A stretch of 64,000 nt of DNA, taken from contig JAYEND010000099.1 of NCBI GenBank assembly GCA_034721895.1, positions 521 through 64,520 of the forward strand, in the 5' to 3' direction. A program made the position numbers and the translations under genes. Position 1 is the first letter of the stretch; every line of letters starts with the position of its first letter. Below the pieces are notes generated by a model that was not told the origin of the DNA, made no database searches, and saw only the letters and a program-made list of their open reading frames with translations. Positions 1,433-56,073 of the stretch are shown one piece after another. Source of the DNA: Campylobacterota bacterium. Its GTDB lineage: Bacteria; Campylobacterota; Campylobacteria; Campylobacterales; Sulfurovaceae.

Positions 1433-1993
1433 CTAACTTAAAGCCGCTCTAATCCCCTCAGCCAGAGCCTCCTTTTCGATCGTGCGTATCATTTTGTCAT
1501 AGGATTCAAACGACAATCCCTCTTTGGCTATTTCTTTTTGCGTAATGATCTCTCCTCCATCAAGCTCAGAGCTCACCCAGTGGATACTGACTCCACCGGT
1601 AGGATAGTCGTCTTCATAACTTTTTTCTATCGCCTTAAGTCCTTTGTGTCTTGGGAGCAGTGAGGGGTGGAGATTGACAGCTCGGATATGATCGGTAAAA
1701 ACCGGTGTCAGTATACGCATAAAACCTGCCAGAACAGTCAACTCAGGACGGTAAAAGTGAAGTCTCTCCACCACTTTGACATCAAAGTCTTCCCTCTTCT
1801 GAAAAGATTTGGAATCAATGATCTCAACAGGAACGCTATAAGCCTTTGCAATTGCAATCCCTTTGGCATCAGGTTTATTGGTCAGAGCAACAGCAACTTC
1901 AAGTTCCTTTTCGTGCAAATGTTCCAGGATATAGGCCATATTGGTCCCGGTACCGCTAAAAAGCACAGCGATTTGAGGTAGATTCTTTTTCAT
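1433..1993 (-). CDS. purN: phosphoribosylglycinamide formyltransferase PurN
   Basis: 186 aa. Contains IAVLFSGTGTNM..., NLHPSLLPRHKG and GVSIHWVSSELDGGEII, typical of the folate-dependent GAR transformylase. Confidence 0.9.
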   Translation of the reverse strand: MKKNLPQIAVLFSGTGTNMAYILEHLHEKELEVAVALTNKPDAKGIAIAKAYSVPVEIIDSKSFQKREDFDVKVVERLHFYRPELTVLAGFMRILTPVFTDHIRAVNLHPSLLPRHKGLKAIEKSYEDDYPTGGVSIHWVSSELDGGEIITQKEIAKEGLSFESYDKMIRTIEKEALAEGIRAALS

Positions 1994-2078
1994 GAGCGCA
2001 TTGTGGCATAATAATGATTATTGCTCTATTAGTTTTAGAGTCAATTAAAACATTGCCACACAAGGCATACCAAAATTT

Positions 2079-5980: not shown

Positions 5981-6922
5981 ATGAATATAGTAGTCCTGGA
6001 TGCGAAAACACTGGGTGATGATTTGGATATGAGTGCATTAACGAACTATGGTGATGTCGAAGTATATCAAACAACCGATCCCGATCAAACCCTTGAACGC
6101 ATCAAGAATGCGGAGATCATCATCACCAACAAAGTAGTGATCACAGCTGAAATGATGAATGCTTCCCCCGATCTCAAATTGATCTGTATCGCTGCTACGG
6201 GGATGAACAATGTCGATCTTGACCATGCGTCAATCAAAGGGATCACTGTCAGAAATGTTGCCGGTTACTCGACCCAAAGCGTTGTCCAGCACACCTTTGC
6301 CATGGCACTCTATCTTTTGGAAAAGCTTCCCTACTATGATCATAATGTCAAAAGCGGCGAATGGAGCCGCTCAGGGCTTTTTACTAATGTCAGCCGTCCT
6401 TTTTCCGAAATTTCAGGTAAAAAATGGGGGATCATCGGTTTCGGTGCCATCGGTCAGGAAGTTGCCAAAATAGCCACTTCCTTTGGTGCAGATGTCTATT
6501 ATCACTCAACTTCAGGAAAAAACCTGAAACACGCCTATCCCCACCTCCATCTTGAATCCATATTGAGTGACTGCGATATCATCTCGATCCATGCCCCGCT
6601 CAATGAGAATACTGTAGAACTGATCAATGAAAACAACCTTCATCTCATCAAAGAGGATGCAATCCTGCTCAATCTCGGACGCGGCGGTATCGTCGATGAA
6701 ACTGACCTTGCCTTCGAACTTGACCGAAAACGTTTCTATGCCGGTTTGGATGTACTGACCAAAGAACCGATCGATCCGGTCAATTCACTCATGCATATCA
6801 AGCACCCCGAACGACTGCTCGTCACACCCCATATCGCCTGGACAAGTATCGAAGCAAGACAAAAGCTTTTTGAAGGTATTTTGCACAATATTCAAACATT
6901 CATTAAAGATATGGAGAGATAA
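5981..6922 (+). CDS. D-isomer-specific 2-hydroxyacid dehydrogenase (glycerate/hydroxypyruvate reductase-like)
   Basis: 313 aa. Has the NAD-binding motif GIIGFGAIGQEVAK, then LGRGGIVDE and C-terminal TPHIAW. Confidence 0.85.
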   Translation: MNIVVLDAKTLGDDLDMSALTNYGDVEVYQTTDPDQTLERIKNAEIIITNKVVITAEMMNASPDLKLICIAATGMNNVDLDHASIKGITVRNVAGYSTQSVVQHTFAMALYLLEKLPYYDHNVKSGEWSRSGLFTNVSRPFSEISGKKWGIIGFGAIGQEVAKIATSFGADVYYHSTSGKNLKHAYPHLHLESILSDCDIISIHAPLNENTVELINENNLHLIKEDAILLNLGRGGIVDETDLAFELDRKRFYAGLDVLTKEPIDPVNSLMHIKHPERLLVTPHIAWTSIEARQKLFEGILHNIQTFIKDMER

Positions 6923-6937
6923 AATGGTCAACCTATT

Positions 6938-7060
6938 CGTGTTACGTGTTACGTGTTACGTGTTACGATGGAAGTGGAGAGTTTACTCCCACCCAATCAA
7001 AGTATTGCCAGGCAATATCCACCAACACTCTTCACTCTTCACTCTTCACTCTTCACTTCA
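6938..7060 (+). repeat. composite intergenic element, copy 1: (CGTGTTA)x4.3, hairpin, (CACTCTT)x4 plus CACTTCA
   Basis: Left array at 6938-6967. Hairpin TATTGCC-a-GGCAATA at 7003-7017. Right array at 7026-7060. Same architecture as the copies at 22689, 23339 and 24457. Confidence 0.8.
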
Positions 7061-7084
7061 TAAAAACCTCCAAAGGAGTTTTTT

Positions 7085-8719
7085 ATGATCGACGTTCTTA
7101 TCATCGGCTCCGGTGGTGCAGGTCTCACCGCCGCACTCTCTGCCAAAGCCAAAGGGGCAAAAGTCCTCGTCGCAGGCAAATTCCACCCCACCAATTCTCA
7201 GACTTCCATGGCTCAGGGAGGGATCAATGCAGCCCTTGGGAATGTTGGAGAAGACTCAATAGAGAATCATATCGCCGATACCATGAAATCCTCCAGAAAC
7301 CTCTGTGATGAAACAATGGTTCGTACAATGTGCGAAAACGCGCCCGAAGCGATCAGCTGGCTTGAAGCGATCGGTGTACCTTTCAGTCGGACAGAAGAGG
7401 CGAAGATCGCGCAGCGGCAGCTGGGCGGTACCCGCAATAAGCGTGCCTGCTACAGTCAGGACTATACCGGCTTAAAAATTCTTCATACACTCTATGACAC
7501 CTGTCTCAAAGAGGGGATCGAATTTCTGGATGAGCACTACTTTCTCAACCTCATCACACAGGAGCAGGAAAATCCTAAACTTGATCCGCTGATCAAGGGA
7601 GCGACACTTCTGGAGATCGTGTCAGGAGAGGTCAAACAGATCGATGCCAAATCAGTCATCATCGCGACAGGCGGCTACTCCTCGATCTATCACGGCTTTA
7701 CGACCAATGCCTTTGGATCGACCGGTGACGGGATCTCGGCCGTGATCCGTGCAGGCGGGTATATCTCCGATATCGAGTTTGTCCAGTTCCACCCTACCGC
7801 GCTCAAAGGCTCTGCGATCCTCATCTCCGAGAGTGCCAGAGGAGAAGGAGGCTACCTGCTCAACAGCAAAGGAGAACGTTTCGTCGATGAGCTGCAACCC
7901 AGAGATATCGTCGCACGGGCCATTTACGAACAGATCGGCAATGGCGAGGAAGTTTTTCTGGATATCAGACATCTGGGAGAAGAGAAACTGATGGAGCTTC
8001 TCCCTCAGGAGGTGCATCTCTGCAAACTACATGAGCATGTCGATCCGGCCACAGAACTTATCCCCATCAAACCGGTAGCACACTATTCGATGGGCGGTAT
8101 CGATGTCAAACGCTCTCTGGAAGCAAGAGGGATCAAAGGATGTTTCGCAACAGGTGAATGCAGCAATGCGAAAGTCCACGGTGCCAACAGGCTGGGCGGC
8201 AACTCTCTTCTGGAACTGATTACTTTCGGAAAACTCGCCGGTGAAAATGCAACTGCCTATGCTACAGAAGCTGGCAACACCCCTGCAGACGATACACAGC
8301 TGAACTCTGACCGAAACTTTATCAATGGGATCTTCCATTTTACCAATCAGATCAATTTCTACGAGAAGCGTGACTTTATAGGAAAGATCTTTTATCATAA
8401 TGCCGGTATCGTCCGCAGTAAAAGCTCTCTCACTGCTGTTCTTGCCGCGATCCGCCAGATACAAAAAGAGCTCCCTTTCATGGGATTGGGAGATAAAAGC
8501 AGAGAGAATAACACTAACCTTGTCGATTTTATCGAATTTGGGAATGCTTTGGAACTCAGCGAAGTCCTGCTGGTCGGTGCCATCAGTCGCAACGAAAGTC
8601 GCGGCGCACACTACAGAGAAGATTTTCCCGAGCAGAGCGATGAACGTTATGGTGCCCATACGATCTTCTGGAAAGAGGATGGTGTCCTCTGTGCCGATTT
8701 TGAAAGGAGGTATGTATGA
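7085..8719 (+). CDS. succinate dehydrogenase/fumarate reductase flavoprotein subunit (non-classical)
   Basis: 544 aa with GSGGAGLTAAL, QFHPTA, AHYSMGG and HGANRLGGNSL. The covalent-FAD motif RSHTxxAQGG reads NSQTSMAQGG here (His replaced by Gln). Confidence 0.9.
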   Translation: MIDVLIIGSGGAGLTAALSAKAKGAKVLVAGKFHPTNSQTSMAQGGINAALGNVGEDSIENHIADTMKSSRNLCDETMVRTMCENAPEAISWLEAIGVPFSRTEEAKIAQRQLGGTRNKRACYSQDYTGLKILHTLYDTCLKEGIEFLDEHYFLNLITQEQENPKLDPLIKGATLLEIVSGEVKQIDAKSVIIATGGYSSIYHGFTTNAFGSTGDGISAVIRAGGYISDIEFVQFHPTALKGSAILISESARGEGGYLLNSKGERFVDELQPRDIVARAIYEQIGNGEEVFLDIRHLGEEKLMELLPQEVHLCKLHEHVDPATELIPIKPVAHYSMGGIDVKRSLEARGIKGCFATGECSNAKVHGANRLGGNSLLELITFGKLAGENATAYATEAGNTPADDTQLNSDRNFINGIFHFTNQINFYEKRDFIGKIFYHNAGIVRSKSSLTAVLAAIRQIQKELPFMGLGDKSRENNTNLVDFIEFGNALELSEVLLVGAISRNESRGAHYREDFPEQSDERYGAHTIFWKEDGVLCADFERRYV

Positions 8720-22688: not shown

Positions 22689-22785
22689 GTGTTCAGCGTT
22701 CAGCGTTCAGCGTTTGAGAAACAATAAAAGTATTGCAGCGCAATACATACCAACACTATTCACTATTCACTATTCACTATTCACT
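22689..22785 (+). repeat. composite intergenic element, copy 2: (GYGTTCA)x3.7, hairpin, (CACTATT)x4.6
   Basis: Left array at 22689-22714. Box AACAATAAAAG. Hairpin TATTGC-agc-GCAATA at 22731-22745. Linker CATACCAA. Right array at 22754-22785. Confidence 0.85.
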
Positions 22786-22820
22786 CAAGATAAGGACTTT
22801 CAATGAAAGTCCTTATCTTG
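22786..22820 (+). promoter_or_regulatory. perfect 15-bp hairpin sequestering SD and start codon of the downstream hydrolase gene
   Basis: CAAGATAAGGACTTT (22786-22800) pairs base-for-base with AAAGTCCTTATCTTG (22806-22820). The loop CAATG contains ATG 22803. Confidence 0.7.
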
Positions 22821-23336: not shown

Positions 23337-23338
23337 AA

Positions 23339-23410
23339 GCATTCAGCATTCAGCGTTCAGCGTTCAGAATAGAAGCATTGCAAAGCAATGCCTACCGACA
23401 CTATTCACTT
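23339..23410 (+). repeat. composite intergenic element, copy 3: (GCRTTCA)x4, hairpin, (CACTATT)x1.6
   Basis: Left array at 23339-23367. Hairpin GCATTGC-aaa-GCAATGC at 23375-23391. Linker CTACCGA. Right array at 23399-23410. Confidence 0.85.
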
Positions 23411-23411
23411 T

Positions 23412-23435
23412 CTGAGGATCAAAAATGATCCTCAG
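23412..23435 (+). promoter_or_regulatory. perfect 9-bp hairpin sequestering SD and start codon of tsaD
   Basis: CTGAGGATC (23412-20) / GATCCTCAG (23427-35). The loop AAAAAT overlaps ATG 23425. The SD GAGGA lies in the 5' arm and codons 1-4 lie in the 3' arm. Confidence 0.65.
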
Positions 23436-24444: not shown

Positions 24445-24456
24445 CCCCCTCAACCC

Positions 24457-26896
<2,440 letters not shown>

Positions 26897-55989: not shown

Positions 55990-56009
55990 CTTTTATTATC
56001 CTTCTTCGT

Positions 56010-56073
56010 GTAGGGTGCGTACTCACGCACCTTAAATTTAATATATGTATTGGTACGTGAGTACGCACCCTAC
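56010..56073. repeat. REP doublet (REPIN-like), second copy: 22-bp arms, 1 mismatch, 20-nt spacer
   Basis: GTAGGGTGCGTACTCACGCACC (56010-31) / GGTACGTGAGTACGCACCCTAC (56052-73). The moaE stop (56070-72) is the CTA of the right arm. Confidence 0.75.

What the first reader, a model, noticed from the sequence alone, without database searches (positions are those of the whole stretch)
6938..7084. Fourth copy of the composite element sits in the sdhA/frdA 5' region, with different heptamers and an anti-SD pairing
The architecture is the same, 15 kb away. It has (CGTGTTA)x4.3 at 6938-6967 and the hairpin TATTGCC-a-GGCAATA at 7003-7017. The linker is TCCACCAA, followed by (CACTCTT)x4 plus CACTTCA at 7026-7060. 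The heptamer sequences differ from copies 2 and 3 (GTGTTAC versus GCGTTCA; CACTCTT versus CACTATT), while the period (7), array position and core are kept. This suggests arrays that expand in situ rather than a copied block. Directly downstream, AAAAACCTCC-aaa-GGAGTTTTTT pairs the sdhA SD (GGAG 7075-78) with an upstream CTCC (7068-71), ending at ATG 7085. CACUCUU also loosely resembles the anti-SD tail of 16S rRNA (CACCUCCUU). That resemblance is speculative.
Basis: partly seen in the sequence, partly recalled or inferred. Interest (0 to 1): 0.6.

Follow-up and report, generated by a model that had tools for sequence, protein, structure and literature searches.

The report
Repeat element read through by relay ORF
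The spacer before the sdhA-like gene is one copy of a repeat family of Sulfurovum-group bacteria; a 54-codon throw-away reading frame appears to carry ribosomes across it to a start site locked in a hairpin, as known for mycobacterial MIRU repeats.

Summary

The element belongs to a dispersed family. I collected about 150 non-identical copies, almost all from Sulfurovum, Nitratifractor and Campylobacterales MAGs.

An ORF (ATG 6924 to TGA 7086-7088) starts 1 nt after the stop of the upstream 2-hydroxyacid dehydrogenase gene. It reads through both arrays and the core, and ends in ATGA on the sdhA start.

- Such a bridging ORF is present in 30 of 38 independent gene junctions, against 12.7 expected.
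- Array lengths among orthologues differ mostly by three heptamers (21 nt).
- Starts of element-associated genes fold far more strongly than control starts (median -12.6 vs -5.5 kcal/mol).
- sdhA orthologues without the element have overlapping genes (ATGgtTGA) or a short plain spacer.

The best explanation is a MIRU-like selfish repeat made translation-transparent by a relay ORF, with an occluded ribosome-binding site that enforces coupling.

In-situ array turnover and the anti-SD pairing are supported. The 16S anti-SD mimicry and the promoter idea are not. Translation is inferred only, because no RNA data exist. This is a new variant of a known kind.

The parts
5981..6922 (+). Upstream gene: D-isomer specific 2-hydroxyacid dehydrogenase (hdh), stop TAA 6920-6922
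   Evidence: Pfam PF02826 (8.8e-46) and PF00389. The synteny purT - hdh - sdhA - sdhB is kept in relatives.
6913..6918 (+). GGAGAG, Shine-Dalgarno-like, 5 nt before the relay ORF start; lies inside the last hdh codons
   Evidence: Read directly from the sequence; SD score.
6924..7088 (+). Relay ORF: 54 codons plus stop. ATG is 1 nt after the hdh stop (TAAAATG). TGA overlaps the sdhA start (ATGA). Product MVNLFVLRVTCYVLRWKWRVYSHPIKVLPGNIHQHSSLFTLHSSLHKNLQRSFL
   Evidence: No Pfam family. Equivalent ORFs are present in 8 of 8 element-bearing sdhA spacers.
6938..6967 (+). Left heptamer array (CGTGTTA)x4.3. It has no stop in any frame on the + strand and lies inside the relay ORF
   Evidence: This unit is found in none of the 212 fetched loci.
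6969..6995 (+). Local hairpin GGAAGUGGAGAGUUUACUCCCACC. Its 5' half resembles a decayed inverted copy of the right array
   Evidence: -10 kcal/mol, z -2.2; the centroid structure pairs 6971-6982 with 7049-7060. Absent from orthologues L099 and L100.
7003..7017 (+). Core hairpin of the family (TATTGC-CAG-GCAATA), preceded by the conserved A-rich flank ATCAAAG
   Evidence: On the opposite strand the family core plus TTTTATT is terminator-like.
7018..7025 (+). Linker TCCACCAA (family consensus ATACCGA / AAACCGA)
7026..7060 (+). Right heptamer array (CACTCTT)x4.6 plus CACTTCA. Open in all three frames on the + strand, TGA in every frame on the - strand. Part of a 56-nt G-free stretch with 41% C (7018-7073)
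   Evidence: 31-mers of this array have about 200 times the genome's depth in the source metagenomes.
7058..7088 (+). Hairpin that buries the sdhA SD (GGAG 7075-7078), the AUG 7085-7087 and the relay stop UGA 7086-7088
   Evidence: -11.8 kcal/mol, z -4.97. Conserved with a compensatory pair in 4 orthologues. Family-wide excess of such hairpins.
7085..8719 (+). Downstream gene: SdhA/FrdA-type flavoprotein
   Evidence: Pfam PF00890 (2.1e-99) and PF02910. Orthologues start at the same M-x-D-V-L-I-I-G-S-G-G-A-G.
22689..22802 (+). Copy B of the family (dxr | YdeN-like hydrolase), relay ORF ending in ATGA
23337..23424 (+). Copy C (hydrolase | tsaD), relay ORF from TTGA to ATGA
24445..24581 (+). Copy D (tsaD | gyrB). 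Stops in all frames, no start hairpin, so not bridged

Best explanation
The hdh-sdhA spacer is one copy of a dispersed intergenic repeat family specific to the Sulfurovum group. Each forward unit has an A-rich flank, a 5-7 bp hairpin ATTGC-NNN-GCAAT, a linker, and (CACTMTT)n.

In the sense orientation the unit is transparent to translation. Two of its three frames, and all three frames of the heptamer array, are free of stops.

In copy A the proposed sequence of events is as follows.
1. A ribosome that finishes hdh at TAA 6920-6922, or one recruited by GGAGAG 6913-6918, starts at AUG 6924.
2. It reads 54 codons through the left array, the core hairpin and the right array.
3. It melts the hairpin 7058-7088, which otherwise hides the sdhA SD and AUG.
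4. It terminates at UGA 7086-7088 on top of the sdhA AUG (AUGA).
5. sdhA is then translated by reinitiation and/or by initiation on the transiently unfolded site.

The peptide itself is probably a throw-away product, because the reading frame through the core differs between copies. Translation of the G-free, C-rich array would also shield it from Rho.

In evolutionary terms this is a MIRU-like solution. A selfish repeat landed between two translationally coupled genes, which still overlap (ATGgtTGA) in a relative without the element. It persists because the bridging frame restores coupling. Heptamers shift the frame by +1 each, so only array changes that keep the register, mostly 3 units (21 nt), survive.

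Shown: the anatomy, the family, the statistics on frames, lengths and hairpins, and the orthologue series. Inferred: that the ORF is translated, that the hairpin blocks independent initiation, and the Rho shielding.
For: - Copy A ORF runs 6924-7088, from TAAAATG to ATGA.
- The spacer has 1 stop triplet on the + strand against 13 on the - strand, with 6.2 expected.
- Family: the genome-contig scan gave 98 loci, about 85 of them from Sulfurovum, Nitratifractor or Campylobacterales MAGs. The metagenome scan gave 85 further non-identical matches, 60 of them family-like by my filter.
- In 98 sense copies grouped into 38 gene junctions, 30 junctions have an ORF with a start codon upstream of the core that ends -4 to +14 nt from the downstream ATG. 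Random frame assignment predicts 12.7, and 0 of 200,000 simulations reached 30.
- Bridging ORFs occur in 26 of 31 element spacers against 26 of 169 other co-oriented spacers (Fisher 1.3e-13).
- Within junctions, core-to-ATG distances differ by multiples of 3 in 22 of 28 contrasts (p 1.2e-6), mostly by 21 nt. L099 lacks exactly 21 nt of the right array.
- Most small ORFs have an ATG with an SD 20-33 nt before the core, and two different frames are used.
- Start regions of element-associated genes fold at a median of -12.6 kcal/mol, against -5.5 for 736 control starts (p 3.9e-17).
- The copy A hairpin has z -4.97 and is kept with covariation.
- All 8 element-bearing sdhA spacers keep a relay ORF. 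Orthologues without the element have an 8-nt gene overlap (L102) or a 50-nt plain spacer without a hairpin (L101).
- Left arrays that lie inside relay ORFs are stop-free. Those upstream of the small-ORF start carry stops in 2-3 frames.
- Precedent: MIRUs insert at start codons with an internal ORF coupled at -4 nt (PMC12548453).
Against: - There is no transcript, ribosome-profiling or peptide evidence, and no RNA run holds this or a related locus.
- Part of the openness is compositional, since a stop-free heptamer is open in all frames by construction.
- Gene starts in the loci were called with a crude SD+ATG rule.
- Many copies are orthologues, so the independent sample is about 38 junctions, not about 150 copies.
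- A hairpin abuts the array in uncoupled copies too, where it is the terminator of a convergent gene. Hairpin adjacency may therefore partly reflect how or where the element inserts rather than selection for occlusion.
- 8 of 38 junctions, including copy D before gyrB, are not bridged.
- The tight nucleotide conservation of the core and of perfect arrays is not explained by a throw-away ORF alone.
Confidence: 0.68

Rival explanations
1. The element is a regulatory platform. The conserved core hairpin and the perfect CACUMUU array would bind a trans-acting factor. This could be an RNA-binding protein, Rho on the G-free C-rich tract, or RNAs carrying the complementary (AAGAGUG)n arrays found in reverse-oriented units. 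The factor would control the relay ribosome, and so the downstream gene, across many housekeeping operons.
For: - The core, its A-rich flank (not part of the search pattern) and the arrays are conserved at the nucleotide level regardless of the reading frame used.
- The stretch 7018-7073 is 56 nt long, G-free and 41% C.
- Complementary purine-rich arrays (AGTGAAG / AGTGAAT)n lie upstream in many composite copies.
Against: - No candidate factor was identified.
- Downstream genes have no common theme (coaD, dnaB, ppk, hisA, hisH, purF, tsaD, sdhA and others).
- The orthologous copy L099 has let the array decay while keeping the relay and the hairpin.
- In copy A the left array is not complementary to the right one.
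Confidence: 0.14
2. The element is a phase-variable switch. Slipped-strand gain or loss of single heptamers would put the relay ORF in or out of register with the sdhA start and toggle its translation.
For: - A 7-nt unit shifts the frame by one.
- In copy A the two other frames end differently: one stops at TAA 7061, the other runs 220 nt out of frame into sdhA.
- Array types and lengths differ among relatives.
Against: - Copy numbers cluster at 4.6 and 1.6 units, and differences are mostly whole multiples of three units. This looks like purifying selection against out-of-register states.
- Only 4-5 units are present, and the downstream genes are housekeeping.
- No length variant was seen in four metagenome runs, although Logan contigs break at the arrays and cannot resolve this.
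Confidence: 0.05
3. The element is a decaying selfish repeat with no role for the ORF. On this reading the open frame is a by-product of stop-free repeats, and the hairpin is simply the element's end or its target site.
For: - Stop-free heptamers are open in every frame by construction.
- Every copy, coupled or not, abuts a hairpin.
- Relatives lack the element without obvious harm (L101, L102).
Against: This does not explain several findings:
- ATG and SD at the 5' end of the ORFs.
- Termination exactly on the next start codon in 30 of 38 junctions.
- The multiple-of-3 length changes.
- The 1 versus 13 strand asymmetry of stops, which includes the unique segments.
- The contrast with 169 control spacers.
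Confidence: 0.08
4. The arrays would be a transcriptional or anti-SD-mimic control region: CACUCUU repeats mimic the 16S 3' tail or titrate SD sequences, or heptamer number tunes a promoter for sdhA.
For: CACUCUU shares CAC-UC-UU with CACCUCCUU. Heptamer number in promoters is known to tune expression in other bacteria (my own knowledge, not tested here).
Against: - No promoter-like site was found in 6500-7400.
- The array is predicted to be unpaired, and the SD is already paired with a dedicated CUCC.
- Relatives use CACUAUU.
- The element sits inside what looks like one operon, with no terminator.
Confidence: 0.03

Closest known systems
MIRUs, mycobacterial interspersed repetitive units (Supply et al. 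1997, as summarised in the review PMC12548453)
   Same: Both are short repeats that sit between co-oriented genes. Each carries an internal ORF whose stop overlaps the next gene's start at -4 nt (ATGA), so that insertion barely disturbs expression. Both show variable numbers of repeat units.
   Different: - Different phylum (Campylobacterota) and no sequence relation shown.
- The unit here is a hairpin plus 7-nt arrays, not a 46-101 bp direct repeat.
- The frame through the element is not fixed.
- The downstream SD and AUG are locked in a hairpin.
- The family also occurs in reverse orientation, where it carries stops in all frames and a terminator-like hairpin.
REP / BIME elements, including the GTAG- and CGTC-tagged REPs reported for Sulfurovum sp. 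NBC37-1 (PMC3733652)
   Same: Both are short palindromic, dispersed, extragenic repeats combined with other motifs into mosaics. Pairs of units occur in inverted orientation. Both are often transcribed within operons.
   Different: - The core has no GTAG or CGTC tag.
- It is strongly polar with respect to gene direction.
- It carries tandem heptamer arrays.
- It is embedded in an ORF.
- Genuine GTAG REPs exist separately in this window (55990-56069).
TAACTGA intergenic heptamer direct repeats of marine Beggiatoaceae, cyanobacteria and Bacteroidetes (MacGregor 2015, PMC4679880)
   Same: Both are tandem heptamers in 2-6 copies in intergenic regions just upstream of start codons, before housekeeping genes, in sulfur-oxidising bacteria. 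A role in translation was proposed for them.
   Different: - TAACTGA has stops in all forward frames and overlaps the RBS.
- The arrays of copy A are stop-free and are read through.
- No hairpin core or bridging ORF was described there.
- The purine-rich left arrays of other family members, (ATGAGGA)n and (GTGAAGA)n, are the closer analogue.
Translational coupling by RNA unfolding and termination-reinitiation (for example rpmI-rplT, MS2 coat-lysis, trpB-trpA; review PMC12548453)
   Same: The downstream RBS is sequestered in a structure that an upstream translating ribosome opens. Stop and start overlap (AUGA, UGAUG).
   Different: The upstream partner here is a 54-codon filler ORF created by a repeat element, not a functional gene.
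BOX elements of Streptococcus pneumoniae and Correia elements of Neisseria (from my own knowledge, not tested here)
   Same: Both are modular intergenic repeats with a variable number of internal units. They are co-transcribed with neighbours and change the neighbours' expression.
   Different: No relay ORF or start-codon welding is known for them. They have different module structure and taxa.

Membership tests
MIRU-like translationally coupled intergenic repeat (functional class) | Repeat lies between co-oriented genes of one transcription unit | tested here: met
   hdh and sdhA are both on the + strand, and no promoter-like or terminator-like site lies between them. The synteny is conserved.
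MIRU-like translationally coupled intergenic repeat (functional class) | Internal ORF whose stop overlaps the downstream start at -4 nt | tested here: met
   ATGA at 7085-7088. The same holds in 30 of 38 junctions family-wide.
MIRU-like translationally coupled intergenic repeat (functional class) | The internal ORF is actually translated and needed for downstream expression | not testable with these tools
   No RNA runs are available and the organism is uncultured.
MIRU (the mycobacterial sequence family itself) | Sequence homology to MIRU units; host Mycobacterium | not tested
   No MIRU sequence was compared. The hosts here are Sulfurovum-group MAGs, so membership is not claimed.
REP / BIME | GTAG or CGTC tag at one end of the palindrome (PMC3733652) | tested here: not met
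   Core flanks read AAAG(C/T)-ATTGC...GCAAT-(G/A)(C/T)ATACC. There is no GTAG or CGTC.
REP / BIME | Association with a RAYT (Y1 transposase) gene in the genome | not testable with these tools
TAACTGA-type heptamer direct repeats | Tandem heptamers, 2-6 copies, intergenic, close upstream of a start codon | tested here: met
   4.3 and 4.6 copies are present, and the right array ends 24 nt before the ATG.
TAACTGA-type heptamer direct repeats | Unit TAACTGA, with stops in all forward frames | tested here: not met
   The units CGTGTTA and CACTCTT are stop-free on the sense strand.
Simple-sequence contingency locus (phase variation) | Repeat number polymorphic within a population or between close strains, in single-unit steps | tested here: inconclusive
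   Between relatives the numbers differ, but mostly by 3 units. Logan contigs break at the arrays, so within-population counts cannot be read.
Leader-peptide transcription attenuator | Leader ORF followed by alternative terminator and antiterminator structures | tested here: not met
   No terminator-like hairpin with a T run lies on the sense strand in 6500-7400. The only strong structure is the RBS hairpin.
Known RNA families (Rfam 15) | Match to a curated covariance model | tested here: not met
   There was no hit at gathering threshold in the window other than tRNAs, and none up to E=10 in 6850-7150.

The most novel reading that the evidence does not exclude
The family may be a genome-wide punctuation and control system for operons rather than a tolerated parasite.

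Forward units would license ribosome hand-over to a start site that is otherwise locked. Reverse units (stops in all frames, a terminator-like hairpin, and ATGA/SD arrays) would insulate neighbouring genes.

The perfectly kept CACUMUU arrays and core hairpin would be the docking site for a trans-acting protein, or for RNAs carrying the complementary (AAGAGUG)n arrays. This factor could stall or release the relay ribosome and so set the output of dozens of housekeeping genes together. Array length, changing in steps of three units, would tune sensitivity.
Probability: 0.12. Interest if true: 0.85.

Novelty: new variant of a known kind. Interest (0 to 1): 0.6.

Why it matters
If the relay reading is right, a whole clade of vent and brine sulfur oxidisers has dozens of essential gene junctions (coaD, dnaB, hisA, hisH, purF, tsaD, sdhA and others) whose translation depends on a repeat-borne filler ORF.

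- It extends the MIRU principle, so far a mycobacterial curiosity, to another phylum. It adds two new ingredients: frame-neutral heptamer arrays and a locked ribosome-binding site.
- It gives an explanation for why heptamer repeats are over-represented in bacteria. A 7-nt stop-free unit is open in all frames.
- Gene callers miss these ORFs and annotate the spacers as non-coding.
- It offers a compact natural bicistronic design.
- For this locus, it implies that the sdhA-like flavoprotein is made in fixed proportion to the upstream dehydrogenase.

Tried and rejected
No whole-genome census of copies, orientation or RAYT genes was possible.
- Rfam gave nothing at either threshold.
- The promoter and terminator scan of 6500-7400 gave nothing.
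- RNA runs for the sdhA gene and for a related two-copy locus gave none. Transcription start and translation could therefore not be checked.
- Laying the four DNA runs showed the assembly is supported and that the arrays are highly multi-copy. Logan's 31-mer contigs break at the arrays, so heptamer-number polymorphism could not be read.
- The MFE of 55-nt segments after the array did not separate coupled from uncoupled copies or from random segments. Only the position of the hairpin was informative.
- The idea that the left and right arrays of copy A pair with each other was rejected, because CGUGUUA is not complementary to CACUCUU. In other genomes the left arrays are the reverse complement of the right ones.
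- The anti-SD-mimic idea was rejected.
- A promoter in the reverse-type unit (TGGTATGCT as an extended -10) was considered. The consensus scan did not call it, so it stays a speculation.
- One DNA alignment failed on a malformed reference.

Full report
**Observation.**
The sequence and Tandem Repeats Finder show (CGTGTTA)x4.3 at 6938-6967 and (CACTCTT)x4.6 at 7026-7057, both perfect. The palindrome TATTGCC-A-GGCAATA lies at 7003-7017 and the linker TCCACCAA at 7018-7025. The core ATTGCNNNGCAAT occurs four times in the window against 0.13 expected, always on the + strand between + strand genes. CACTNTT arrays occur only next to these cores. The flanking genes are a D-isomer 2-hydroxyacid dehydrogenase, here called hdh, and an SdhA/FrdA-type flavoprotein followed by its Fe-S subunit.

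**The SD hairpin.**
It folds at -11.8 kcal/mol with z -4.97, and none of 200 shuffles does as well. It buries the SD, the AUG and the next base. The right array stays single-stranded in the predicted fold. This argues against CACUCUU acting as an anti-SD mimic.

Frame 0 of the spacer is open from ATG 6924 to TGA 7086-7088. The ATG lies 1 nt after the hdh stop TAA 6920-6922 and is preceded by GGAGAG. The TGA overlaps the sdhA ATG as ATGA. The ORF has 54 codons. The 162-nt spacer has one stop triplet on the + strand and 13 on the - strand, with 6.2 expected. Copies B and C in the window have the same arrangement; copy D, before gyrB, does not.

**The family.**
A scan of one genome per prokaryote species with ATTGCNNNGCAATRYNNNCCNNCACTNT returned 98 loci. 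About 85 are from Sulfurovum, Nitratifractor or unclassified Campylobacterales MAGs. The rest are pattern-only chance hits in other phyla, without arrays. The same scan of metagenome contigs gave 110 stretches, 85 of them not identical to the first set.

The consensus forward unit is aATAAAAGC-ATTGC-AAA-GCAAT-GCAtACCgA-(CACTATT or CACTCTT)x1.6 or 4.6-CACT. It is followed at once by a locus-specific hairpin. The A-rich flank was not in the search pattern and is nonetheless conserved.

In many genomes the forward unit is preceded by a reverse-type unit. This consists of purine-rich heptamers and then GGTATGC-hairpin-TTTTATT. The heptamers are either (AGTGAAG/AGTGAAT)n, which is the reverse complement of the right array, or (ATGAGGA)n, which is ATGA plus an SD with 7-nt spacing. 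The whole reverse-type unit is an inverted paralogue of the core unit and scores as terminator-like. It is followed by an SD and the ATG of a small ORF. The family is therefore a BIME-like mosaic with strong polarity. It is open to translation and free of terminators in one direction. In the other direction it has stops in all frames plus a terminator-like hairpin.

**Test of the bridging ORF.**
I analysed 98 non-identical sense copies with an ATG-initiated long ORF 35-125 nt after the core. I grouped them by the downstream protein into 38 junctions, including coaD, tsaD, dnaB, ppk, hisH, hisA, sdhA, a YdeN-like hydrolase and purF.

- In 30 junctions an ORF with a start codon upstream of the core ends between -4 and +14 nt of the downstream ATG, mostly as ATGA or TGATG. 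Random assignment of frames predicts 12.7, and 0 of 200,000 simulations reached 30.
- Among co-oriented spacers of 70-260 nt in the same loci, 26 of 31 with the element have an ORF bridging at least half of the spacer. Only 26 of 169 without the exact pattern do (Fisher 1.3e-13).
- Two different frames through the core are used, reading ..SIAKQC.. or ..ALQSNA... The third frame is closed by a TAA in the conserved flank. The peptide sequence is thus not what is conserved.

**Array length and frame.**
Within junctions, distinct core-to-ATG distances differ by a multiple of 3 in 22 of 28 contrasts (p 1.2e-6). The commonest step is 21 nt, that is three heptamers. Examples are 77 vs 56 for coaD, 75 vs 54 for hisA, hisH and purF, 74 vs 53 for another junction, and 78 vs 57 for tsaD and ppk. 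Where the distance changed by a non-multiple of 3, the ORF uses the other open frame (hydrolase junction). Left arrays that lie inside relay ORFs (the three in this window, plus L053 and L088) are stop-free. Those that lie upstream of the small-ORF start carry stops in two or three frames.

**Start-site hairpins.**
The -30..+15 regions of 48 element-associated gene starts fold at a median of -12.6 kcal/mol, against -5.5 for 736 other starts in the same loci (Mann-Whitney 3.9e-17). The drawn structures cover the SD and/or the AUG. The design N5-7-CTCC-AAA-GGAG-N5-7-ATG recurs before at least ten different genes. In other copies the 3' arm is made of codons 2-5 of the gene. One caveat applies: uncoupled copies also have a hairpin starting 0-3 nt after the array, there the terminator of a convergent gene. 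Adjacency to a hairpin may therefore partly be a property of the element or of its target.

**The orthologous spacer.**
SdhA homologues were found and their contigs fetched.

| Locus | SdhA identity | Spacer | Left array | Right array | Relay ORF |
|---|---|---|---|---|---|
| L099 | 90% | 79 nt; same core with the same CAG loop, same SD hairpin | none | 21 nt shorter and decayed | 27 codons, from ATGA on the hdh stop to TGATG |
| L100 | 88% | 102 nt | none | CACTATT units | ends in ATGA |
| L209 | not measured | element present | (GTTCAGG)x4 | mixed | from TAGTG to ATGgTAG |
| L053, L069, L082, L134 | not measured | element present, different hairpin pairing with codons 2-4 | L053: degenerate (GGTTAYT), about 3 units; L082 and L134: none; L069: none evident | present; L082 and L134 carry a 33-nt nested insert | ends 4-13 nt into sdhA |
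| L101 | 83% | 50 nt, plain, no element, no hairpin | none | none | none |
| L102 | 81% | hdh and sdhA overlap by 8 nt (ATGgtTGA) | none | none | none |

The SD hairpin of the W, L099, L100 and L209 group is kept, with one compensatory pair and several wobble changes.

Three conclusions follow. The element is dispensable. It sits where two genes were directly coupled. Every lineage that has it keeps a bridging frame, 8 of 8. The arrays differ in presence, unit and number between close relatives.

**Mechanism.**
The best-supported reading is translational coupling through a filler ORF. A ribosome leaving hdh, or one recruited at GGAGAG, initiates at AUG 6924. It crosses the element, unfolds the 7058-7088 helix and terminates on the sdhA AUG. 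This allows reinitiation and/or initiation on the exposed site. Both coupling models, and the role of Rho on untranslated RNA, are established (review PMC12548453). The stretch 7018-7073 is 56 nt long, G-free and 41% C, so it would be a plausible Rho entry site if left untranslated. That step is an inference.

The published precedent is the mycobacterial MIRU. The same review describes it as a mobile repeat that inserts at start codons with an internal ORF coupled at -4 nt. Earlier notes of this scan pointed me to it, and I checked the statement in the paper.

**Other comparisons.**
- GTAG and CGTC REPs are reported for Sulfurovum (PMC3733652), but the core here has neither tag.
- TAACTGA heptamer arrays upstream of start codons in Beggiatoaceae (PMC4679880) are the nearest published heptamer analogue. 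They carry stops in the forward frames and have no described bridging ORF.
- No Rfam family matches.

**Limits.**
- No RNA data exist for this or a related locus, so translation is inferred from comparative sequence evidence only.
- Logan contigs show the assembly is supported and that CACTCTT-array words have about 200 times the genome's depth. They cannot resolve heptamer counts.
- Gene starts in the fetched loci were called by a simple rule.
- Why the core and the perfect arrays stay so well conserved is not explained by a throw-away ORF. That leaves room for a trans-acting factor.

**Verdict.**
The element is a new, heptamer-bearing, hairpin-locked variant of the MIRU principle in Campylobacterota. 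Confidence in the relay mechanism is about 0.68, and interest is 0.6.

Noticed in passing
L001, L082, L091, L134 (inside the right array): The same 33-nt insert (TACCCCAAGGGCACTTGTCCCTTCGGTCGGGCG, itself a small hairpin) interrupts the CACTMTT array at different gene junctions. Its length is a multiple of 3 and the relay ORF reads through it. It looks like a second, nested mini-element.
   Followed up: partly
window 55990-56069 (- strand): Two GTAG-tagged REP hairpins (GTAGGGTGCGTACTCACGCACC type) lie in inverted orientation in one spacer. This is a classical REP doublet, separate from the heptamer family.
   Followed up: no
window 1940-2078 (- strand): A degenerate reverse-type unit lies right after a stop codon (TAG aaatttt GGTATGC CTTGTGTGGCAATG TTTTAATT). 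It is a probable fifth, decayed family member in the other orientation.
   Followed up: no
L007, L012, L040, L042, L084, L086 and others: Left arrays (GAATGAG)n equal (ATGAGGA)n. Every unit is an ATGA stop/start overlap plus an SD placed 7 nt before the next ATG, so the array stops any incoming frame and offers a start in every frame. L042 has 14 units.
   Followed up: partly
L071, L152, L159, L012, L038: In a few junctions (M16-type peptidase and others) the frame that spans the element runs in frame into the downstream gene, so the element could be part of an N-terminal extension. These genes also have their own SD after the hairpin.
   Followed up: no
L037 5330-5404, L031 6903-6982: The core hairpin plus TATTATTT scores as terminator-like only on the strand opposite to the genes. 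The GCTTTTC..GAAAAGC TTTTATT hairpin of the reverse-type unit scores as terminator-like on the gene strand. TGGTATGCT just before it resembles an extended -10 box.
   Followed up: partly
window 6938-7057, runs X1-X4: In the source brine metagenomes the 31-mers of (CACTCTT)n have about 17,500 summed depth against about 89 for the flanks, and (CGTGTTA)n about 880. The arrays are therefore very abundant in the community, and contigs break at them.
   Followed up: partly
L102 1501-1508: In a relative with 81% SdhA identity, hdh and sdhA overlap by 8 nt (ATGgtTGA) with no spacer. This is the likely ancestral state of the junction.
   Followed up: yes
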